Source of the DNA: an uncultured Hydrogenophaga sp.
GTDB taxonomy: Bacteria > Pseudomonadota > Gammaproteobacteria > Burkholderiales > Burkholderiaceae_C
DNA: 64,000 nucleotides
Assembly (NCBI GenBank): GCA_964650505.1
Contig: CAZYUD010000009.1
Coordinates: 10,335 to 74,334 of the forward strand
Direction of reading: 5' to 3'
Part shown: positions 29,806-37,440 of the stretch, in pieces
How the letters are laid out: each line of letters opens with the position of its first letter
Position numbering within the stretch: position 1 is the stretch's first letter
Program-made: the position numbers and the translations under genes
Notes under the pieces: model-generated
The model's database searches: none
What the model saw: only the letters and a program-made list of their open reading frames with translations
What the model was told of the DNA's origin: nothing

Positions 29806-29883
29806 TCGGCGTGTAGCGCAGCCTGGTAGCGCACTTGCATGGGGTGCAAGGGGTCGCGAGTTCGAATCCCGCCACGCCGACCA
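29806..29883 (+). tRNA. tRNA-Pro (anticodon GGG)
   Basis: Acceptor stem CGGCGTG/CACGCCG. D-arm GCGC-AGCCTGGTA-GCGC. Anticodon stem CTTGC/GCAAG with loop ATGGGGT, giving anticodon GGG. T-loop TTCGAAT, and a 3' ACCA. TATAAT at 29790-29795 sits upstream. Confidence 0.85.
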
Positions 29884-29898
29884 TTTATACCGAACAAC

Positions 29899-29932
29899 GG
29901 CCCACAAACTCAGAGTTTGTGGGCCGTTTTTT
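29899..29932. terminator. Rho-independent terminator after tRNA-Pro, convergent with the minus-strand operon
   Basis: 12-bp stem GGCCCACAAACT / AGTTTGTGGGCC, loop CAG, then T7. Confidence 0.8.
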
Positions 29933-29948: not shown

Positions 29949-31283
29949 TCAGCGCGCGTAGGGCGGCACCGCGGCAATGGCCGCCCAGTTCGCTTCAATC
30001 ACGCCACGCAGCGCAGCGCTGGGCACACGGGCGGGATCGCCCAAAAACTCCAGGGTGCGTTTTTGGTTGCGCGAGAAGTGCACCGCCAGCCGCAGCGACG
30101 CGGCGGCGGTGTTGGCCTCGTTGGTCTCGGCCATGAGTTCGGCGAGGTTGCTCCAGGCGTTGGTTCGGGTAGGGGCCATCAGCAAAGCGGTGACCAGGTT
30201 CTGCTGCGCGCTGTCGTGGCGGCCCAGGCGCAGCTCGGCAAAGCCCAGGTTGTTGCGGATTTCGGCGTCGTTGGCGTTGGACTGCACGCCCATCTCAAAC
30301 AGGCCGTGGGCCGCGACCCAGTCGCCTTGGTTGATGAGGTCGAGCCCGCCTTGGTTGAAGGCGCGGGCGGTGGCTTTGTCTTTCACCAAATGGGTTTGGG
30401 GCCGCTTCTCGCGCAGCAGGGCTCGCACGCCGGCCCAGTCGTCGGTGGCGGCCATGCGCAGCAGGGCGTTGAGATCGTCGGTGTTGAGCACCACGGCCGA
30501 GGTGGTCTGGCTGTCGCTGATGGGCGGAGGTGCTTGCAGCTGCGCCACACCCGAGCGGGTGAGCGCGCTGGCGGTGTCGCTGGACAGGCTCGGTGTGTCG
30601 AGGGCTTGCACCAACAGATAGCCACCCAAGCCGAGCGCCGCGCCCACCAGCCACCAAGCCCAGGAAGAAGAGGCTTTGGGGGAGGGCTCTGCGGCTGCTG
30701 TGTGGGCTTGTTCTAAGGGCGGCTCGTCGGCGCTGGGCTCGGGCAGCTGGCGCACGCCCCAGATTTCGGCCAAGGGCTGACCACGGTGCACGGTGTCGCC
30801 CACCTTGACCAGCAGGGCGCGGACCTGGCCGTCGCAGTCGCTGGGTATCTCAAAAATGAAGTCGTCGGTCTCTAAACACACCACGGCTTGGTCTGCCGTG
30901 ACGGAGTCGCCCACTTGCACCATCACTGCGGAGACCAGCGCTTCGGTGGCGTCACCAAAATCGGACAGGGCAACGGTGTGCAGGGCGGCGCTGGGCGCTG
31001 GTGCCGCTGGGTCTGCCGCGCCCAGTGCCGGCGCGGCCTCGTATACGGGGGTGACAGGGGCGTCCGCTGCTGCGGGTGAGGCCACAGCGGCCACTGGCTC
31101 TATGGGGACGGGTGCCGGTGCAGGTGCGTGTGCGGCGGCCTCAGGCACGAGCGCGGGTGTGGGTGCGGGGGGCGCAATGGGGCTGGCCTCGGCGGTGTCT
31201 CCAGAGTTGGGCACCACTGTGCCGCATTGGATGCACACCCGTGCGGTGTGGCGCAGCGTGGCGCCGCAATGGCTGCAAAGCAT
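29949..31283 (-). CDS. Gene F of the novel operon: zinc-ribbon / lipoyl-like barrel / TM / TPR protein (444 aa)
   Basis: An N-terminal CxxC-x11-CxxC zinc ribbon (CSHCGATLRHTARVCIQCG) and a Pro/Ala-rich linker. A biotinyl/lipoyl-like segment follows (VMVQVGDSVTADQAVVCLETDDFIFEIPSDCDGQVRALLVKVGDTVHRGQPLAEI). One TM helix (WAWWLVGAALGLGGYLLV) precedes C-terminal TPR-like repeats. It starts 18 nt after the gene E stop. Confidence 0.6.
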   Translation of the reverse strand: MLCSHCGATLRHTARVCIQCGTVVPNSGDTAEASPIAPPAPTPALVPEAAAHAPAPAPVPIEPVAAVASPAAADAPVTPVYEAAPALGAADPAAPAPSAALHTVALSDFGDATEALVSAVMVQVGDSVTADQAVVCLETDDFIFEIPSDCDGQVRALLVKVGDTVHRGQPLAEIWGVRQLPEPSADEPPLEQAHTAAAEPSPKASSSWAWWLVGAALGLGGYLLVQALDTPSLSSDTASALTRSGVAQLQAPPPISDSQTTSAVVLNTDDLNALLRMAATDDWAGVRALLREKRPQTHLVKDKATARAFNQGGLDLINQGDWVAAHGLFEMGVQSNANDAEIRNNLGFAELRLGRHDSAQQNLVTALLMAPTRTNAWSNLAELMAETNEANTAAASLRLAVHFSRNQKRTLEFLGDPARVPSAALRGVIEANWAAIAAVPPYAR

Positions 31284-31301
31284 GTGGGGGTTCCGGGTGG
31301 C

Positions 31302-32699
31302 TCAGACGGTGATGGTCACGCCGCGCAGTTGCGCGAGCTGGCGGATGAAGGCTTCGGCCGCGACCGGGGTGGGTGCCAAGCCGAAGGTCACAGCGAGGTG
31401 GATGAGGGTGGCCAGTTCGCTGGCATCAATTTCACCGTTGCTGGCGGCGCCGTCAAAGGCCAGGTTGAACGCCTGTTGCGCGCCAGCGGGTGGGGCGGCT
31501 GGGGCTGGAGCTGCCGCCGGCGCGGCGGCTGGGCTGTTGACCGGGGGCTGTGAGCCCGGTGGCAGGCGGCGCTGGTATTCGCTGAGGATCTGCGGTTCGG
31601 CGTCGGCGGGGAAGGACACGCCTTCGGCGTCGTCGGTGCTGCGGATCAGCAGCTGGCCCAGGGCTTGGCCTTTGGAAATGGCGGTGAGTGCCACTTGGCG
31701 GGCGGAGTAGGGGCCTTGTTCGCCGCGTTCGGTGACCACAAAAAACGCCACTTGGCTGCTGAGCACACCGGCCGGGCGCGCGGGCGGGGCGCTGCGCTGC
31801 GGGGGGCGGCTGATGCCGGTGAGATTACCGCCCAAGTTCATGCCGCCCAAGATGAGCGGGCCGTTGCCCGATTCGAGGCCTTTGCCCAGGCCTTCGAGCG
31901 CGGAGCGCTGGGCCTGGATCATGTTGAATTCGGCAAAACCGTCGTTGGTGGCAAGCTGCATGCCTTTGGCTTGCAGCGCGAGTTGGGCTTCTTGTTTGCC
32001 GAATTCGCGCAGCAGGGCAAAGCTGGCCTCGTCCAGCGCCAGCGCCATGTCGAACACACGACCGATGTCGATGCCCAGCGGCACAAATTCGCTGCGGGCG
32101 AGGGTTTTGACGTCTTCGCTCAGTGCCTCGGCGTCGACGTTGGACACCACGTTGAGGATGGGCATGCGCTGGGCGCGCTGGCCCACAGCGGCGCGCAGCT
32201 GATTGAACATGCGGCCGTTGAAGGCGGTTTCGATGTTCGACTCCGACCCCGCATGTTGGCCGCCCAGTTCAATGACCAGGCGCGCCGGGTCGGTCACCTT
32301 GACGGTGTACGACAAGCTGCCGCGCATGGCGACCACGTTGGCGGAGTTCAGGTCTTTGTATTGCCCCAGTTCGGTGCGCGGGGCGTCGAAGCGCTTTTCG
32401 CTGAGCCGAACAAAAAACACCTCACAAATGAAGTGGTTGGCGTCGGTGAACTTGTCGATCAGCAGGTGACCGAGGAAGGGAATGTTGGCGGTGTCGAGCT
32501 GGACGGTGGTGCCCGGGTTGATCTTGCCGATGTACTTGCCTTCGCGAAAGAAAAGCACACATTCGTCGCTGCGTACAGTGAGTTTGGTGCCGCGCGGAAT
32601 CGATTTGTCGGGATGCAAGTAGATGAGGTCGTCCGCCCGATCGGCCGGACGGGCCACGTACATCGATTTTGTTTCTTTGCTGAACCAGCCTAAAACCAT
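31302..32699 (-). CDS. Gene E: YdjI/COG4260-like SPFH (band-7) family protein with C-terminal extensions (465 aa)
   Basis: The N-terminal ~260 aa align with B. subtilis YdjI (DDLIYLHPDKSIPRGTKLTVRSDECVLFFREGKY...ANIPFL). A GYF/DUF4339-like block then follows (FFVVTERGEQGPYSARQVALTAISKGQALGQLLIRS). A Pro/Ala linker and a small C-terminal helical domain complete the protein. An SD GAGGA lies upstream. Confidence 0.6.
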   Translation of the reverse strand: MVLGWFSKETKSMYVARPADRADDLIYLHPDKSIPRGTKLTVRSDECVLFFREGKYIGKINPGTTVQLDTANIPFLGHLLIDKFTDANHFICEVFFVRLSEKRFDAPRTELGQYKDLNSANVVAMRGSLSYTVKVTDPARLVIELGGQHAGSESNIETAFNGRMFNQLRAAVGQRAQRMPILNVVSNVDAEALSEDVKTLARSEFVPLGIDIGRVFDMALALDEASFALLREFGKQEAQLALQAKGMQLATNDGFAEFNMIQAQRSALEGLGKGLESGNGPLILGGMNLGGNLTGISRPPQRSAPPARPAGVLSSQVAFFVVTERGEQGPYSARQVALTAISKGQALGQLLIRSTDDAEGVSFPADAEPQILSEYQRRLPPGSQPPVNSPAAAPAAAPAPAAPPAGAQQAFNLAFDGAASNGEIDASELATLIHLAVTFGLAPTPVAAEAFIRQLAQLRGVTITV

Positions 32700-32714
32700 G
32701 GTGTCCTCAGTGGG

Positions 32715-33140
32715 TCATTGCCCGTTGGTGGGATCTTCGTAGGTGCGGCGGTCGCTGGCTTTGGGCAAGGGCGCGGCGCTGCGCCCGGCCAACAGCGGCA
32801 GGGCGACGGTGAGCAGCAGCGACAGGCCAACGACACCCCACACTGGTGTGGGCACGTCGTTGACCTGGGCGATGTCGCCGCCATAGACCACAAACATGCC
32901 GATGGTGGTGACGACCGTGACCAGCAAGGACACGATGTTGAGCCCCAGAGTGACGGCGCCATAGGTGAAATCGTCGGCGCGCAGGAGCTGGAACAGCGGG
33001 CCTTGCCAAACCACCACATACACATGCGCCAGCATCACGCCGAGCAGCGCCAAGTTGCCCGGCAGCTGCAGCGACGGCCAACCACACAGCAGCCACAGCA
33101 GCGGTGGCAGCACCAGGGTGAAGATCAGTCGGGTCATCAT
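32715..33140 (-). CDS. Gene D: small 4-TM membrane protein (141 aa)
   Basis: Four hydrophobic helices with no motifs. It overlaps the gene C stop by 4 nt (ATGA), indicating translational coupling. Confidence 0.55.
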   Translation of the reverse strand: MMTRLIFTLVLPPLLWLLCGWPSLQLPGNLALLGVMLAHVYVVVWQGPLFQLLRADDFTYGAVTLGLNIVSLLVTVVTTIGMFVVYGGDIAQVNDVPTPVWGVVGLSLLLTVALPLLAGRSAAPLPKASDRRTYEDPTNGQ

Positions 33141-34132
33141 GCGGTGTGGCAGACGGTTTGCAGAATCCAGCGCTCTTCGTCGGTGAGCGGCGCCAGGGCC
33201 TTGTCGAGCTGCTGGCGGCGGATGTTGGGCGCGTAGTGTTCAAACTCGAAGCCACATTTGAGCATTTGGGTCAGGCTGTTGACCGCTTCGCTGATTTTGG
33301 AAATGTCGCTGATGCGCCCGCCAATCGACAGCACCCATTTCTGCACCTGGCCTTGGTGCTCTTCGTCGAGCGCGGGGTTGGCCAAGGTGGTGGCGCGTAC
33401 CCAGTCGGTTTGCGGGTAGAGGCGGGCGTAGGCGGGGTACTTCACATCGGGTTGTTGCAGCCGGTTCATCAGCCCCCGGCCGTGGCGGATGGCGGGGTAA
33501 TACCGCACATCGGCATCCAACACGGTGCTTGGCGCGGTTTCCATGGGCGCAAACACTGGGGCGTTGAGGCTTTCACCCAGGCTGTGCAGCATGACGCAGT
33601 GGCCCTCAAAGGTGACGTCTCGGCTGGCGTAGCCGCCAATCGTGCTCATGCGCACCTTGAGGCTTTCGTCGACCAAGCAGGTGCCCAGCACCAGCGAGTT
33701 TTCCAGCACACAGTGGGTAGCGCGGATGCTGCCAAACACGATGGCGTTGCGCAGGTAGACGCCTTGGTTGACGGCGATGTCGCCTTTGACAATCACACGC
33801 GCGGCGTCCATGCCGTCTTGCAGACCGGGCAGGGGTTGCAGCGGGTCGTAGCGGCAGTTGAGAGAGCCGTTGATGGTGATGCCCGAGTCGAGCTGGATGC
33901 GGTGGGCGCCGGGGTTGAGCACTGTGTCGCCGCGCGAGACCACCGGGCCTTGCACATGCACATTGCCACGCAGCTCCAACGAGCGGCCATAGACCGAGCC
34001 GCCAATGCGCACCGCTTGTTCGCTGCCGTCGATGAGCACCGGAAACACCAGCTCGCGTTCGCTGGTGGGGAACACACTGCCGGCCACCGATCGGTTGACC
34101 ACCACGTTGCTGCCTTCTTGTTGCACGGCCAT
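33137..34132 (-). CDS. Gene C: bactofilin-like beta-helix repeat protein (331 aa)
   Basis: Residues ~10-190 show beta-helix periodicity rich in G/V/I/S (VVVNRSVAGSVF...VRIGGSVYGRSLELRGNVHVQGPVVSRGDTVLNPGAHRIQLDSGITINGSL). This resembles bactofilin/DUF583 or Toastrack-type folds. The C-terminal 140 aa are unassigned. Confidence 0.5.
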   Translation of the reverse strand: MAVQQEGSNVVVNRSVAGSVFPTSERELVFPVLIDGSEQAVRIGGSVYGRSLELRGNVHVQGPVVSRGDTVLNPGAHRIQLDSGITINGSLNCRYDPLQPLPGLQDGMDAARVIVKGDIAVNQGVYLRNAIVFGSIRATHCVLENSLVLGTCLVDESLKVRMSTIGGYASRDVTFEGHCVMLHSLGESLNAPVFAPMETAPSTVLDADVRYYPAIRHGRGLMNRLQQPDVKYPAYARLYPQTDWVRATTLANPALDEEHQGQVQKWVLSIGGRISDISKISEAVNSLTQMLKCGFEFEHYAPNIRRQQLDKALAPLTDEERWILQTVCHTA

Positions 34133-34134
34133 GC

Positions 34135-35241
34135 TTATTTCTCCAGAACGCTGAGCTTGCCCGAGCCCAGGAAGTCTTCAAACAGTGCGCGGGCGTCGGA
34201 CGAGATGAGGTTTTTTTGCAGCAGCGATGCGGCCGCTTTGCCCAAGCGCACCACCTCGTCGGGCTTGAGCGCACGGTGGCTGTGCTTGGGCACCTGTTGG
34301 GCGACGCGCTGCTGCGCCGCCTTGCCGTGAAAGACGGCCAAGCTGTTGTCGGCCACCTGCAGCGACACCGGCTGATCGCCCTGCACCCGCAGCGCAGCGT
34401 GGCCACTGAGCACGGTCAGGTCTTTGCCAGACGACACCGCCAGGCCTTGCACACACAGTGTGTCGGCGCTGCGCCGGCGCGCCAGGCCAGAATCCTTGTA
34501 CGCCTTGAGGGTCTGGTCGAGTGCGTCGAGCGAGTGGACCACCTCGTCGAGCCGGCTGGTTTTGAGCAGCTTGAGGGTTTCGTCGAGGTTGGCCGAGCGC
34601 GCAGAGAGGCGCTTGAGGTCCATTTCAATCGGCAGGCTGTGCGCGTCTTCGTAGGGCACACGCGCGGCCTTGAAGGCGGGAGCGTTGTCTTCGAGCTTGA
34701 TGCGGAAGATGTGCTCGCCAATCGTGCGCAGCTTGTTTTGGTAGTCGTCGGTGATTTTCTGGAAGTTCTGGTTGTACAGCTCGTAGTTCAGCCCCACGCC
34801 CACCAGCGAGCGGTCGTAGCGGCTTCGAATGTCTTGGAAAAACGCTTCGAGCTTGCCTTTGAGGCCAGTGGCATCGGCCACTTTTTTGCCCACTTCAATT
34901 TGCAGGCTCGATTCGGTTTGCACCTCAATGCGTCCACGGGTGGCCTGAAAGTCTGCCTCGATTTGCTGTTTGGTGCGTTCCAGCATGGCGGTGGTGGCCG
35001 CCACCCCGCCAACAACTGCCACCGTCTGTTTGTTGATGGCGCCGACGATCATTTCACCGACTTCTCTCATTTCGTCCTCCAATCTCTGGATTTCGCTTTC
35101 GACCCAGCGCCGCAGGTCGCGGATTTCACCGCGCATTTCGCTGCGCACGCTGTTGATTTCGCCCCGCATTTCCGAGCGCAGGGAGCTAATGGCGCTGTTG
35201 AGTTCCGCGTACGAGATGCCTGATGGGGCCTGTGTGGACAT
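34135..35241 (-). CDS. Gene B: helical/coiled-coil protein with an N-terminal tandem repeat (368 aa)
   Basis: SLRSEMRGEINSVRSEMRGEIRDLRRW is a near-exact 10-aa tandem repeat (SEMRGEIxxx). A heptad-like charge pattern runs throughout. It stops 2 nt before the gene C start. An SD GAGGAG lies upstream. Confidence 0.55.
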   Translation of the reverse strand: MSTQAPSGISYAELNSAISSLRSEMRGEINSVRSEMRGEIRDLRRWVESEIQRLEDEMREVGEMIVGAINKQTVAVVGGVAATTAMLERTKQQIEADFQATRGRIEVQTESSLQIEVGKKVADATGLKGKLEAFFQDIRSRYDRSLVGVGLNYELYNQNFQKITDDYQNKLRTIGEHIFRIKLEDNAPAFKAARVPYEDAHSLPIEMDLKRLSARSANLDETLKLLKTSRLDEVVHSLDALDQTLKAYKDSGLARRRSADTLCVQGLAVSSGKDLTVLSGHAALRVQGDQPVSLQVADNSLAVFHGKAAQQRVAQQVPKHSHRALKPDEVVRLGKAAASLLQKNLISSDARALFEDFLGSGKLSVLEK

Positions 35242-35254
35242 GGCGGCTCCTCGG

Positions 35255-37348
35255 TCACTGGTTGAGCAGGCGCGGCTGCTGGGCGCCAGCGTAGGGCAGC
35301 AGCGCGTCGGGCTCGCGAATCAGGTCAATCGGGTCGTGCACCGAGCCCCGGTTGGCGGCCTGTGTTTGCGGCATGCCGCTGAGCAGGGTTTCAAATTTCT
35401 CTGCCGTGGTGAGGGTGGAGTCGCCCATCACCAGTTTTTGCAGTTTGTCGTCCGACACGGCCTCGGCGGCGCGCTCGGACATCAAGCCCAGCGCGCTCAT
35501 GCTGTCGCGGAAAGACAGGATTTCGGCGTATTTGGACTTGAGGTCGGATTCGAGCAGGTAGACGTTTTCACGCACCGCCCGCATGTCGGCGCGGAACTGG
35601 TTGGCGATGTCGATGAGCTTTTCCGATTCCTTCTCGGTCATGCGGCGCATTTCCTCGTTGGTGCGGAACAGCTCGGATTTGCGGAAATCGGCCTTCTCGG
35701 TCCACAGGTGTTCCCACAGCGGGATCATGAGATCGGAATAGGCCTTGACCACGCTGCCAAAGCGGATGGCGTCGGCGGTGCTGTAGACATAAGGCGTGGT
35801 GTTGGACGACCACTCTTGGTTGTCCGGGTCGTAATAGAGCTGGGCTTCGGTGGAGAAGTTGAGCACCGGATAGGCCGAGCCGGTCATCACCTTTTGCAGC
35901 ACATGGCCAAAGTGTTTCACCGCTTCGTCGAACTGCGATTCGATGTGGCGCGGGCGTTGGCCCACGTCCAGGCGGCGGCCTTCGGCGTCGAACTGAGCGC
36001 CTTCCATGAACTGCTGCACCGCGTCGTAGCTCTGGGCCAGCTGCTCTTCCAAATCGGGTTTGGACTGCAGGCGTTTGTGGATTTCCACATCGTCGTGCAA
36101 TCGGGTGATGAGGTCGTCAAACGACAGCAAATAGGCTTTGGAAGCCTTGATGCCCAGCAGTTCTTCAATGTAGGCACTCGATTGGATGGTGCGCGGGCAA
36201 TACACCCGGCGGCTGCACCAGGCGGCGCTGCCCAGCACATCGAGCAGGTTGGTGTGCAGGGTGTTGACCGAGGCCACCCGGGCTTGGGCGTAGAGCGCAC
36301 ACACCCGGTCGAGGTTGTTGAACACCTCGTTGAGTTCGGCAAAGATGGCCAGCCCGCGTTCGCGGTTGCTGTTGACCCGGTCGACAAACGCCGAGATCGC
36401 CTTGGGGTCGAGCTGGCTGCTCATGTGCACACGCGGACCGGCGTCGGCGCTGGGCAGCGACGCGCTCGCAGCGCGCTCCACCAGCAGGCTGTTTTTGGGC
36501 ACCAAGGGCAGGGTGAGGTCGATGTCGCGCAGCTTGCCCAGGCTCAAGGTGAATTGGCCCACCAGTTGCTGCAAATCGCTTTCTTCGCCAAACAGTTCGT
36601 GCACCGGGTCGTCGCTGTGTGCGTGCTCCTCGGGCGTGAGCAGCGGCGGCACCTGCAGCAGCGCCTGCACCTTGTCGGAGATGTGGGACAGGCCTTCTTC
36701 CATGGCCGACACATCGATGGCCTTGAGCTTGACCGGGGCGTGCGACTCTGAGAGGTCGAGCAGCACCTGGTGGCCCGACACCTCGGCGCTGCGCAAAGCA
36801 AAGTCGATGGGCGTGACCTTGGTGTCGGGGAAACCCACCGCGCGGCTTTTTAACTCGGTCTTGAGTTCCTCGATGCGGCGGCTGTTGTGTTGGCAGGCGC
36901 TGTCGGCGCTGGCCAGCGCAGCGTCGGCCTGGGCCAAGGCTTGTGAGAGCTCGGCCTTGATGGCGTTGGCGGCTTTTTTGGCGGTGCTGAAAGCCCAAGC
37001 AACCAGCACCGCCAGCACCACCACAGCGGTGATGGCGCCCATGAACCACCAGCCCAGCAGCGCGCCGGTCACGGCGGCCACCGCTTGGCCGATGGCCGCG
37101 CCGTTGAACACACGGTCTTGTGCGGTGGCCAGCGCTTCGCTGGCGGTTTTTTGCGCCTTGCGGGCTTGATCGAGTGTGGACTGCAAGCCGGGTTGCTGGC
37201 GCTCGGCGGCCTCGATGTCGCCGCGCAAGTCTTCGCCGCGCCGCCATGCGGCCAGCATAGGCATCAGGTGGTGAATCACGCCAAGCACCACCGTCTCATC
37301 TGCGCTGTCGACGTTTTCAATGGGTTTGGCCAAGGCCAATTGGGACAT
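35255..37348 (-). CDS. Gene A: large single-TM protein of unknown function (698 aa)
   Basis: The start was set at the ATG preceded by GGAGG. One TM helix (LLGWWFMGAITAVVVLAVLVAWAF) follows at ~aa 100-125. A ~570-aa soluble domain follows with no P-loop or known catalytic motif. It is the first gene of the operon. Confidence 0.55.
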   Translation of the reverse strand: MSQLALAKPIENVDSADETVVLGVIHHLMPMLAAWRRGEDLRGDIEAAERQQPGLQSTLDQARKAQKTASEALATAQDRVFNGAAIGQAVAAVTGALLGWWFMGAITAVVVLAVLVAWAFSTAKKAANAIKAELSQALAQADAALASADSACQHNSRRIEELKTELKSRAVGFPDTKVTPIDFALRSAEVSGHQVLLDLSESHAPVKLKAIDVSAMEEGLSHISDKVQALLQVPPLLTPEEHAHSDDPVHELFGEESDLQQLVGQFTLSLGKLRDIDLTLPLVPKNSLLVERAASASLPSADAGPRVHMSSQLDPKAISAFVDRVNSNRERGLAIFAELNEVFNNLDRVCALYAQARVASVNTLHTNLLDVLGSAAWCSRRVYCPRTIQSSAYIEELLGIKASKAYLLSFDDLITRLHDDVEIHKRLQSKPDLEEQLAQSYDAVQQFMEGAQFDAEGRRLDVGQRPRHIESQFDEAVKHFGHVLQKVMTGSAYPVLNFSTEAQLYYDPDNQEWSSNTTPYVYSTADAIRFGSVVKAYSDLMIPLWEHLWTEKADFRKSELFRTNEEMRRMTEKESEKLIDIANQFRADMRAVRENVYLLESDLKSKYAEILSFRDSMSALGLMSERAAEAVSDDKLQKLVMGDSTLTTAEKFETLLSGMPQTQAANRGSVHDPIDLIREPDALLPYAGAQQPRLLNQ

Positions 37349-37360
37349 GTGGGGACCTCC

Positions 37361-37440
37361 TAAAGCGGTCAAAAATCCAATGAAATCTATCAATTGTTAT
37401 TTTTTATTGTCAAAAATTCCAATAAACCCAGGCAGACCAT
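37361..37440 (-). promoter_or_regulatory. AT-rich promoter region of the six-gene operon with a direct repeat
   Basis: ~30% GC. GTCAAAAATCCAAT at 37368-37381 is repeated as GTCAAAAATTCCAAT at 37410-37424. It lies immediately upstream of gene A. Confidence 0.45.

What the first reader, a model, noticed from the sequence alone, without database searches (positions are those of the whole stretch)
29949..37440. Tightly coupled six-gene operon without enzymes built around a YdjI-type SPFH protein: candidate novel membrane-scaffold or envelope-stress system
Seen in the sequence: six co-directional minus-strand genes sit next to a tRNA-Pro gene, which is often an integration or hot-spot site. Spacings are 13, 2, -4, 15 and 18 nt, and each gene has its own SD. 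An AT-rich promoter with a 14-bp direct repeat precedes the first gene. Products are A (698 aa, one TM plus a 570-aa orphan domain), B (368 aa coiled coil with SEMRGEI tandem repeat), C (331 aa bactofilin/beta-helix-like), D (141 aa, 4 TM), E (465 aa: SPFH/COG4260 YdjI-like N-domain, then GYF-like and C-terminal modules) and F (444 aa: zinc ribbon, lipoyl-like barrel, TM, TPR). Established: YdjI homologues in Firmicutes sit in pspA-ydjGHI, where they partner a zinc-ribbon membrane protein and PspA (ESCRT-III-like membrane repair). Here the zinc-ribbon membrane partner is retained, but PspA is replaced by a bactofilin-like polymer plus a repeat coiled-coil and a large orphan TM protein. Inference: the proteins combine a polymer-forming beta-helix, SPFH microdomain organiser, coiled coil and TPR/zinc-ribbon adaptors. 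All are membrane-associated and none is an enzyme. This fits a self-assembling membrane remodelling or envelope-stress or defence scaffold not matching any named system I know. GC content matches the host and no att duplication was found, so it is probably vertically inherited.
Basis: partly seen in the sequence, partly recalled or inferred. Interest (0 to 1): 0.85.

Follow-up and report, generated by a model that had tools for sequence, protein, structure and literature searches.

The report
Mobile five-gene SPFH membrane module
This is a real, tightly packed operon whose five core genes (an orphan membrane protein, a helical protein, a beta-helix protein, a small four-helix membrane protein and a YdjI/SamI-type SPFH scaffold) move as one block between distantly related Proteobacteria; no description of it turned up, and its probable job of watching over or remodelling the cell membrane is untested.

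Summary
The six minus-strand genes exist as described, with gaps of 13, 2, -4, 15 and 18 nt, a sigma-70-like promoter and a terminator shared with tRNA-Pro. E is a Band_7_1 SPFH protein. C is a right-handed beta-helix (AF2 pLDDT 90; bactofilin 6RIA superposes at 1.8 Å). F has a zinc ribbon, a pseudo-lipoyl domain, a TM helix and TPR repeats. A, B and D are orphans.

The conserved unit is five genes, A-B-C-D-E. They are colinear in every sufficiently long locus of about 30 examined, down to 37% C identity. They are under purifying selection (dN/dS 0.07-0.23). F is a swappable accessory: only its zinc ribbon is constant, and that ribbon is instead fused to E where F is missing.

The cassette is rare (18 loci in 185,579 species genomes) and patchy across Beta-, Alpha- and Gammaproteobacteria. 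It sits at a different site in nearly every genome, sometimes with integrases, IS21, toxin-antitoxin genes or deviant GC3. It is therefore horizontally mobile, not vertically inherited.

It matches no PADLOC, NCBIfam or PHROG family, was found on no phage or plasmid, and appears in no paper I could find.

Best reading: a SamGHI-like SPFH recruitment platform coupled to a new A/B/C assembly in place of PspA. The function is inferred, not shown.

The parts
37368..37422 (-). Promoter region: -35 TTGACA (37413-37408), -10 TAGATT (37389-37384), and two copies of (T)TGGA(A)TTTTTGAC (37422-37409 and 37380-37368)
   Evidence: The repeat core is conserved in the 91% relative L028 but not in L027.
35255..37348 (-). 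Gene A, 697 aa. Orphan protein with an N-terminal helix, a hydrophobic helical hairpin or TM segment (about aa 85-121) and a 570-aa, mostly helical, highly conserved C-terminal region
   Evidence: ORF. AGGAGG lies 7 nt upstream of the ATG. Hydropathy. Family of about 32 clusters of roughly 690-705 aa, all unnamed. No family match in the six-protein Pfam, NCBIfam or PHROG scans or in a Pfam scan of 27 A-family members. AF2 pLDDT 70.5, with no fold match. Only a weak PADLOC LeoBC hit, 2.4e-5.
34135..35241 (-). Gene B, 368 aa. Helical or coiled-coil orphan with a lineage-specific RSEMRGEI duplication and a conserved small-residue patch AVVGGVAATT
   Evidence: No PspA_IM30 or Snf7 hit in 17 orthologues. 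No PDB sequence match.
33137..34132 (-). Gene C, 331 aa. Right-handed beta-helix (aa about 3-211) plus a C-terminal mixed/helical domain. About 50 invariant residues, including the GES, DW, LSIGGR and KCGFEFEHY motifs
32715..33140 (-). Gene D, 141 aa. Four-TM protein with an invariant GDxFTYG loop motif and a conserved C-terminal LPxKxxRR tail. Its start overlaps the C stop (ATGA)
   Evidence: No family match.
31302..32699 (-). Gene E, 465 aa. Soluble SPFH protein (Band_7_1, aa 31-220), then a Gly-rich low-complexity linker, a small conserved middle domain (aa about 315-380) and a C-terminal DGxI...LGL module (TerB/DUF533-like, weak)
   Evidence: All 16 orthologues hit Band_7_1. Alignment. No TM segment.
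29949..31283 (-). Gene F, 444 aa. Variable accessory: N-terminal zinc ribbon, Ala/Pro linkers, pseudo-lipoyl domain (aa 103-174, ETDD instead of ETDK), TM helix (about aa 218-238) and TPR repeats (aa about 310-410)
   Evidence: Counterparts in other loci keep only the zinc ribbon. F is absent in L010, L012 and L021.
29896..29928 (+). G+C-rich hairpin between the tRNA-Pro 3' end and the F stop codon. The scan reports it on the plus strand (T-run downstream of tRNA-Pro); reading it as a shared or bidirectional terminator for the operon is my inference
   Evidence: sequence.
29807..29883 (+). tRNA-Pro(GGG), the neighbour at the F end of the cassette. No att-like duplication of it was found

Best explanation
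The locus is a self-contained, horizontally mobile membrane module with a five-gene core (A-B-C-D-E) and a swappable zinc-ribbon adaptor (F).

Its D-E-F half is built like the Bacillus subtilis SamG/SamH/SamI (YdjGHI) platform. A soluble Band_7_1 SPFH protein without a membrane anchor (E) is brought to the membrane by an adjacent polytopic protein (D) and by a bitopic zinc-ribbon protein (F). F's outward-facing domain varies and probably samples the envelope.

In Bacillus that platform recruits the ESCRT-III protein PspA. Here it is coupled to three proteins of new families: a hairpin-anchored helical protein (A), a helical protein (B) and a beta-helix protein (C).

The most likely mechanism is as follows. 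Envelope perturbation is sensed through F and D. The E oligomer then concentrates A, B and C at that membrane patch. The A/B/C assembly stabilises, remodels or seals the membrane, protecting the cell against envelope insults, which may include phage attack.

Shown: gene content, folds, co-conservation, mobility and purifying selection. Inferred: all interactions, the trigger and the outcome.
For: - Co-inheritance. A-B-C-D-E are colinear in every locus long enough to show it, from 97% down to 37% C identity.
- Block transfer. In L027, homology to the window spans exactly from the A start to the E stop.
- Purifying selection. dN/dS is 0.07-0.23.
- Translational coupling. Gaps run from -4 to 18 nt.
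- E resembles SamI. It is Band_7_1, has no TM segment and carries a low-complexity linker. Three orthologues (L016, L020, L021) end in a zinc ribbon. This is the SamI/YdjI architecture described in PMC8581546 and bioRxiv 10.64898/2026.02.06.704340.
- E and F are linked by a Rosetta-stone argument. F-type proteins always begin with a zinc ribbon and then differ. The ribbon sits on E exactly where F is missing.
- The same adaptor domains (GYF_2, zinc ribbons) are fused to C-family proteins elsewhere.
- Membrane association. A has a hydrophobic hairpin, D has four TM segments and F has a TM helix.
- No recognisable nuclease, NTPase, protease or other classical effector or enzyme domain appears in any protein.
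Against: - No experiment exists, and no protein-protein interaction was tested.
- B and A are not detectably PspA/ESCRT-III-like. There is no PF04012 hit, and Foldseek matches to Vipp1/PspA have E of about 1-2.
- D is not detectably SamH- or NfeD-like.
- A housekeeping-type stress response would not be expected to be this rare (18 of 185,579 species genomes) or this mobile.
- C's many invariant polar and Cys/His residues hint at a catalytic or ligand-binding role that a pure scaffold model ignores.
- In L026, A-B-C occur without any SPFH gene, so the SPFH platform is not indispensable.
Confidence: 0.4

Rival explanations
1. It is an abortive-infection or anti-phage (or other inter-genomic conflict) system. 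The SPFH/zinc-ribbon part senses phage-induced envelope or membrane changes. A, with its hydrophobic helical hairpin, is then released as a membrane-disrupting effector, with B and C as regulators or an assembly platform. The infected cell dies or arrests.
For: - Rare, patchy distribution across three proteobacterial classes.
- Block transfer and different insertion sites.
- Cargo of integrase/IS21/Prim-Pol elements and tRNA-linked islands.
- Neighbouring toxin-antitoxin pairs, type IIG restriction-modification genes and a PDC-S11 candidate in some flanks.
- GC3 deviation in L021.
- A swappable, diversifying outward-facing domain in F.
- An FHA/Ser-Thr-kinase-linked variant.
- Weak resemblance of A's hairpin region to alpha-pore-forming toxins and to the dynamin-like LeoBC.
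Against: - No protein matches any of the 5027 PADLOC models convincingly.
- Most flanks in 12 genome loci are ordinary housekeeping genes, not defence islands.
- It was not found in IMG/VR viral contigs, PLSDB plasmids or PHROGs.
- The pore-former resemblance is statistically insignificant.
- No recognisable toxin domain is present.
Confidence: 0.3
2. It is a cytoskeletal or positioning scaffold. C polymerises like a bactofilin on the membrane with A and B. E organises a microdomain that localises some other cellular machinery, for example for cell shape, division or envelope synthesis.
Against: - The Pfam bactofilin model does not match C.
- The helix is about twice the bactofilin core and is followed by a C-terminal helical domain. 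This domain may cap the helix end and hinder the end-to-end polymerisation typical of bactofilins; the capping is my reading of the secondary-structure order, and the model coordinates were not inspected.
- Core cytoskeletal functions are not usually this rare and mobile.
- No client enzyme is encoded nearby.
Confidence: 0.12
3. One reading: a vertically inherited six-gene envelope-stress operon of the host lineage, built around the SPFH protein.
For: The window cassette has the same GC and GC3 as its flanks. No att duplication is present. The nearest relative, L028, has it at the same fadB-linked site.
Against: Only 18 loci occur in 185,579 species genomes, in three classes. Flanks are unrelated at 76% nt identity. 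F is not part of the conserved block. A-B-C exist without SPFH in L026.
Confidence: 0.05

Closest known systems
Bacillus subtilis pspA-samGHI (pspA-ydjGHI) membrane-stress module (PMC8581546; bioRxiv 10.64898/2026.02.06.704340)
   Same: Both have a soluble Band_7_1 SPFH protein without a membrane anchor, carrying a low-complexity linker and, in some orthologues, a C-terminal zinc finger. It is encoded next to a polytopic membrane protein and a zinc-ribbon membrane protein. All genes lie in one tightly packed operon, and none has a recognisable enzyme domain.
   Different: No PspA/ESCRT-III gene is present; three orphan families (A, B, C) take its place. D and F show no detectable sequence homology to SamH or SamG beyond the zinc ribbon. 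E carries an extra middle domain and, in the window, a TerB-like tail instead of the zinc finger. The module is proteobacterial, rare and horizontally mobile rather than a sigma-W regulon member.
NfeD-SPFH gene pairs and SPFH cages (YbbJ-QmcA, YqiJK, HflK/C-FtsH); from established knowledge
   Same: A small multi-TM protein gene (D) lies immediately upstream of, and is translationally close to, an SPFH gene. SPFH proteins oligomerise into membrane-attached cages that enclose client proteins.
   Different: D has no NfeD (PF01957) match. E lacks the N-terminal TM anchor of QmcA and HflK/C. No protease client is encoded.
Bactofilins (BacA/CcmA; Thermus bactofilin, PDB 6RIA)
Membrane-anchored anti-phage sensors such as Zorya (ZorAB) or Kiwa (KwaAB); resemblance recalled from own knowledge, not tested
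   Same: Both are mobile multi-gene cassettes with membrane-embedded components thought to sense envelope perturbation, and both show a patchy distribution.
   Different: No homology to any Zorya or Kiwa component (the PADLOC ZorA hit to B has E = 0.024 and is coiled-coil noise). No nuclease or other effector domain is present. There is no consistent defence-island context.

Membership tests
SPFH / Band_7_1 (PF13421, the YdjI/SamI family) | Match to the Pfam Band_7_1 model above the gathering score | tested here: met
   E scores 48.1 bits against a cutoff of 24, E = 1.5e-12, aa 31-220. All 16 orthologues match.
SamI/YdjI-type architecture | No intrinsic membrane anchor, and a low-complexity region after the SPFH domain | tested here: met
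   No hydrophobic segment in E. A Gly-rich linker, GLGKGLxxGNGPxxLGGxxLGG, follows the SPFH domain. The feature definition comes from PMC8581546 and the 2026 bioRxiv paper.
SamI/YdjI-type architecture | C-terminal zinc-finger motif | tested here: not met
   The window E ends in a DGxI...LGL module with no Cys pairs. The zinc ribbon CPFCGE...C..C is present in the orthologues of L016, L020 and L021 only. In the window the ribbon is on F.
pspA-samGHI (Psp-type) operon | A PspA/IM30 (ESCRT-III) gene in the operon | tested here: not met
   No PF04012 or Snf7 hit at E <= 0.1 in any of the six proteins, nor at E <= 0.05 in 17 B or 27 A orthologues. Foldseek matches of A to Vipp1/PspA have E of about 1-2.
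pspA-samGHI (Psp-type) operon | A zinc-ribbon membrane protein partner (SamG-like) | tested here: met
   F has Zn_Ribbon_1 at aa 3-22 (21 bits, cutoff 25, E = 2.9e-4) with CxxC...CxxC, plus a TM helix. All five F counterparts scanned (L001, L002, L017, L019; L004) start with the same ribbon. Homology to SamG itself was not tested because no SamG sequence was available.
pspA-samGHI (Psp-type) operon | Induction by membrane or alkaline stress, and SPFH-dependent recruitment of the effector to the membrane | not testable with these tools
   Needs expression and localisation experiments.
Bactofilin (PF04519) | Match to the Pfam bactofilin/DUF583 model | tested here: not met
   No hit for C at E <= 0.1. 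The only hit is a sub-threshold one (20.8 bits against 27.9) in the distant relative P0230.
Bactofilin (PF04519) | Right-handed three-sided beta-helix core | tested here: met
Bactofilin (PF04519) | Nucleotide-independent polymerisation into filaments | not testable with these tools
   Needs purified protein or imaging.
NfeD-SPFH pair | The upstream membrane protein carries an NfeD domain (PF01957) | tested here: not met
   D has no Pfam, NCBIfam or PADLOC match.
Known or candidate anti-phage defence systems (PADLOC-DB 2.0.0) | Significant match of the component proteins to a defence-system model | tested here: not met
   C, D and E have no hits. A hits LeoBC at 2.4e-5 and B hits LmuB at 5e-4; both cover coiled-coil or TM regions only. 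F has an E = 0.03 hit.
Lipoyl/biotinyl carrier domain (PF00364) | Domain match plus the modifiable lysine in the E(T/G)DKA hairpin | tested here: not met
   The domain matches at 57 bits, but the sequence reads LETDDFIFEIPS, with Lys replaced by Asp. It is therefore a pseudo-lipoyl domain. The motif definition comes from established knowledge.
GYF_2 domain (PF14237) in E | Match to the GYF_2 model or to bona fide GYF_2 domains | tested here: inconclusive
   No Pfam hit in 16 E orthologues. An HMM of E aa 308-385 finds nothing among the GYF_2-bearing C fusions. hhalign aligns it in register with a GYF-like repeat of the L026 291-aa protein, but at E = 0.015 and 3% probability.

The most novel reading that the evidence does not exclude
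A-B-C, usually with D and the SPFH protein E, may be the core of a previously unrecognised class of horizontally mobile, membrane-acting conflict or defence machine. In this reading an SPFH cage and zinc-ribbon/GYF adaptors gate an orphan hairpin-anchored protein (A) and a beta-helix protein with a conserved Cys/His/Glu site (C). The mechanism would be unrelated to PspA/ESCRT-III, to bactofilin cytoskeletons and to any catalogued defence system.
Probability: 0.3. Interest if true: 0.85.

Novelty: new variant of a known kind. Interest (0 to 1): 0.62.

Why it matters
SPFH proteins are universal, yet what they organise is known in only a few bacterial cases: HflK/C with FtsH, the flotillins, and SamI with PspA. 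Here a SamI-type SPFH protein is locked by co-inheritance to three protein families with no known relatives. That gives a clean, genetically compact case (about 7 kb, five genes) in which to ask what an SPFH platform recruits and why.

The cassette's mobility and its swappable sensor-like adaptor make it a credible candidate for a new membrane-based defence or stress-protection system.

One cultured carrier exists (Novosphingobium sp. NPDC080210), and the cassette is small enough to move into a model host. The question is therefore directly testable.

Tried and rejected
- Sequence-profile searches of the C, B and E families against PDB sequences found nothing.
- The afdb50 library was unavailable.
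- An att-site search found no duplication of the tRNA-Pro 3' end.
- The empty-site test failed. The exact IhfA protein is not on record. The three contigs carrying the exact MerR protein are 100% identical to the window and all stop inside tRNA-Pro, which is uninformative.
- The defence-island hypothesis was tested by tallying 99 flanking ORFs from 12 genome loci. These are mostly housekeeping, with only sporadic restriction-modification or candidate defence genes, so a consistent defence-island context is rejected.
- A phage or plasmid origin is not supported. Searches with the C protein found no relatives in IMG/VR or PLSDB, and none of the six proteins matched a PHROG family.
A narrower alignment worked.
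- 'B is a PspA substitute by homology' is rejected: there is no IM30 or Snf7 signal.
- The 'GYF-like domain in E' could not be substantiated.
- Literature searches for SPFH with bactofilin, with anti-phage, for COG4260/PF13421 and for GYF_2 found no description of this gene set.


Full report
**Observation**

The region holds six co-directional minus-strand ORFs: A 35255-37348, B 34135-35241, C 33137-34132, D 32715-33140, E 31302-32699 and F 29949-31283. The gaps are 13, 2, -4, 15 and 18 nt. This matches the 697-aa length of its closest homologues.

A sigma-70-like TTGACA-18-TAGATT site lies at 37413..37384. Two imperfect copies of TTGGA(A)TTTTTGAC lie at 37422-37409 and 37380-37368. Their core is kept in a 91%-identical relative but not in a 76%-identical one.

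tRNA-Pro(GGG) is at 29807-29883. A strong hairpin terminator at 29896-29928 sits between it and the F stop codon. Shine-Dalgarno motifs are clear for A, B, C and E. D starts within an ATGA overlap, and F's motif is weak. GC and GC3 of the six genes equal those of the flanking pheT, fadB-like and thiolase genes. No att-like repeat of the tRNA was found.

**What the proteins are**

- E is a Band_7_1 SPFH protein (48 bits against a cutoff of 24) with no hydrophobic segment. After the SPFH domain come a Gly-rich linker, a conserved roughly 70-residue middle domain and a C-terminal DGxI...LGL module. One orthologue weakly matches the TerB-like DUF533.
- The 'GYF-like' label for the middle domain could not be substantiated. 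Only a weak in-register hhalign match exists.
- F has an N-terminal zinc ribbon, a Biotin_lipoyl domain (57 bits) flanked by E2-like Ala/Pro linkers, a TM helix and TPR repeats. The lipoyl-lysine position reads ETDD rather than ETDK, so this is a pseudo-lipoyl domain.
- D has four hydrophobic helices, an invariant GDxFTYG loop motif and a conserved basic C-terminal tail.
- A and B match nothing. Neither gave a family hit in the six-protein scans of Pfam, NCBIfam and PHROGs or in Pfam scans of 27 A and 17 B family members. The B profile has no PDB sequence match.
- The A model (pLDDT 70.5, pTM 0.32) has no fold match. Weak hits to LeoBC, alpha-pore-forming toxins and Vipp1 are at noise level.

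**Conservation**

C belongs to a compact family of 131 clusters, all about 330 aa and nearly all unnamed. A belongs to a similar family. An exhaustive profile search over 1.84 billion representatives found only 219 C relatives.

In every locus long enough to judge, A, B, C, D and E are colinear. This holds in the main clade at 47-97% C identity. It also holds in divergent clades at 37-38% C identity, L029/L030 and L031. In L032, L033, L034 and L038, A/B/C/E persist but D is absent or undetectable. One variant, L026, has FHA-A-B-C followed by a 291-aa protein with GYF-like repeats. It has no SPFH gene and lies next to a Ser/Thr kinase.

dN/dS for A-E is 0.07-0.11 against the 91% relative and 0.11-0.23 against the 76% relative. 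These are real genes under selection.

**F is an accessory**

Genes downstream of E all start with a zinc ribbon and then differ:
- TPR in the window, L004, L006 and, on the opposite strand, L031.
- SH3 in L001.
- LprI in L002 and L019.
- No recognisable domain in L017.

In L010, L012 and L021 no F follows E. In L016, L020 and L021, E itself ends in a zinc ribbon. This complementary pattern is a Rosetta-stone argument that the ribbon works with E. The same small adaptors recur on C relatives: GYF_2 on P0183, P0181 and P0167, and double zinc ribbons on P0265, P0282 and P0300.

**Mobility**

A scan of one genome per species (185,579 species) found 18 loci:
- Betaproteobacteria: Comamonadaceae, Polaromonas, Ramlibacter, Rhodoferax, Polynucleobacter, Oxalobacteraceae and Sulfuritalea.
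- Gammaproteobacteria: Acidibacter.
- Alphaproteobacteria: Novosphingobium, Erythrobacter and Sphingomonadales.

Nearly all are freshwater or groundwater MAGs. Flanks differ from locus to locus.

The nearest relative, L028 (91% nt), shares the fadB flank. In L027 (76% nt), homology to the window runs exactly from the A start to the E stop (window 37342-31311), with unrelated flanks and a different downstream gene. Further signs of mobility:
- L001 carries the cassette beside an integrase, Prim-Pol/DUF3987 genes and between two 99%-identical IS21 copies.
- L002/L003 carry it beside an integrase and tRNA-Val.
- L016 has tRNA-Ser about 500 nt upstream of A.
- L004 is surrounded by PIN/PhdYeFM pairs.
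- In L021 the cassette GC3 is 0.44-0.46 against 0.63-0.73 in its flanks.

This contradicts 'vertically inherited', although in the window itself the cassette is compositionally ameliorated.

A tally of 99 flanking ORFs from 12 genome loci is dominated by housekeeping genes, with only two type IIG RM genes and a few candidate defence hits. The only cultured carrier has the cassette next to tamA/tamB-like genes. No relatives of C were found in IMG/VR or PLSDB, and none of the six proteins matched a PHROG family.

**Comparison with known systems**

The D-E-F half resembles the Bacillus subtilis SamG/SamH/SamI (YdjGHI) platform. [quoted passage not shown]

The membership test for a Psp-type operon fails on its defining component. 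No PspA/IM30 is present, and B is not detectably related to it. C is bactofilin-like in fold only. No PADLOC model matches. Six literature searches found no description of this gene combination.

**Interpretation**

Shown: a five-gene, co-inherited, selected and horizontally mobile membrane-associated cassette, containing a SamI-type SPFH protein and three orphan families.

Inferred: D and the zinc-ribbon protein recruit E to the membrane. E concentrates A, B and C there. The assembly protects or remodels the membrane after envelope insult (confidence about 0.4). An abortive-infection or defence role, with A as a membrane-disrupting effector, is the main rival (about 0.3). A cytoskeletal scaffold is possible (about 0.12).

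I rate it a new variant of a known kind: an SPFH/zinc-ribbon platform with a new payload. There is a substantial chance that the A-B-C core represents something categorically new.

Noticed in passing
window 30762-30977 (minus strand; F aa 103-174): F carries a Pfam-significant lipoyl/biotinyl domain with E2-like Ala/Pro linkers, but the modifiable lysine is replaced (LETDDFIFEIPS instead of E-T/G-D-K-A). It looks like a captured and inactivated piece of a 2-oxoacid dehydrogenase E2/E3. It was not detected (tblastn with window F) in the F counterparts of the other loci.
   Followed up: partly
L031 435-2264 and 2402-8109: In this divergent locus the A-E cassette lies directly downstream of a dihydrolipoamide dehydrogenase gene that has an N-terminal lipoyl domain. 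This is a possible source context for the pseudo-lipoyl domain seen in the window's F. It could also be coincidence.
   Followed up: no
L001 2397-4827 and 17314-19744: Two 99%-identical IS21 copies (istA/istB) in the same orientation, 14.9 kb apart, bracket a tyrosine integrase, the cassette and two further genes. The arrangement resembles a composite transposon.
   Followed up: partly
L026 8337-16728: A variant system reads FHA protein, then A', B', C', then a 291-aa protein with two GYF-like repeats. It has no SPFH gene. A Ser/Thr protein kinase and an RDD-domain protein are adjacent, which suggests phospho-signalling control in that clade.
   Followed up: partly
P0183, P0181, P0167; P0265, P0282, P0300 (C-superfamily proteins): C-like beta-helix proteins occur fused to a long Pro/Ala-rich linker plus a GYF_2 domain, or to C-terminal double zinc ribbons. 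These are the same adaptor modules that appear on E and F in the window system.
   Followed up: partly
window 29840-29845 (inside tRNA-Pro); L042-L044: Three independent metagenome assemblies that are 100% identical to the window upstream (pheT-ihfA-merR) all terminate inside the tRNA-Pro gene. This could reflect a repeated tRNA sequence or a strain-variable junction at the cassette border. It was not resolved.
   Followed up: partly
window 37368-37422; L028 about 1130-1190: The core GAATTTTTGAC of the two upstream repeats is conserved in both copies in the 91%-identical relative. The second copy lies downstream of the predicted -10 box, as an operator or a second promoter might.
   Followed up: partly
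L021 6799-12742: In a Rhodoferax MAG the cassette has GC3 of 0.44-0.46 while its flanking genes have 0.63-0.73. This is a clear compositional signature of recent acquisition.
   Followed up: yes
window 32715-33140 (D) and alignment A9: Despite only 25-49% identity, the small 4-TM protein keeps an invariant GDxFTYG loop motif and a C-terminal LPxKxxRRE.E.P tail. These are candidate docking peptides for a soluble partner.
   Followed up: no
window 35118-35190 (B aa about 18-41): The RSEMRGEI duplication in B is an 11-residue tandem insertion absent from the 16 other B sequences aligned. It is therefore a recent slippage event rather than a family feature.
   Followed up: yes
L018 2474-2572: ARAGORN calls a 'tRNA-SeC' inside the C gene of this Erythrobacter MAG. 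It is almost certainly a false positive, since it lies within a conserved coding sequence.
   Followed up: no
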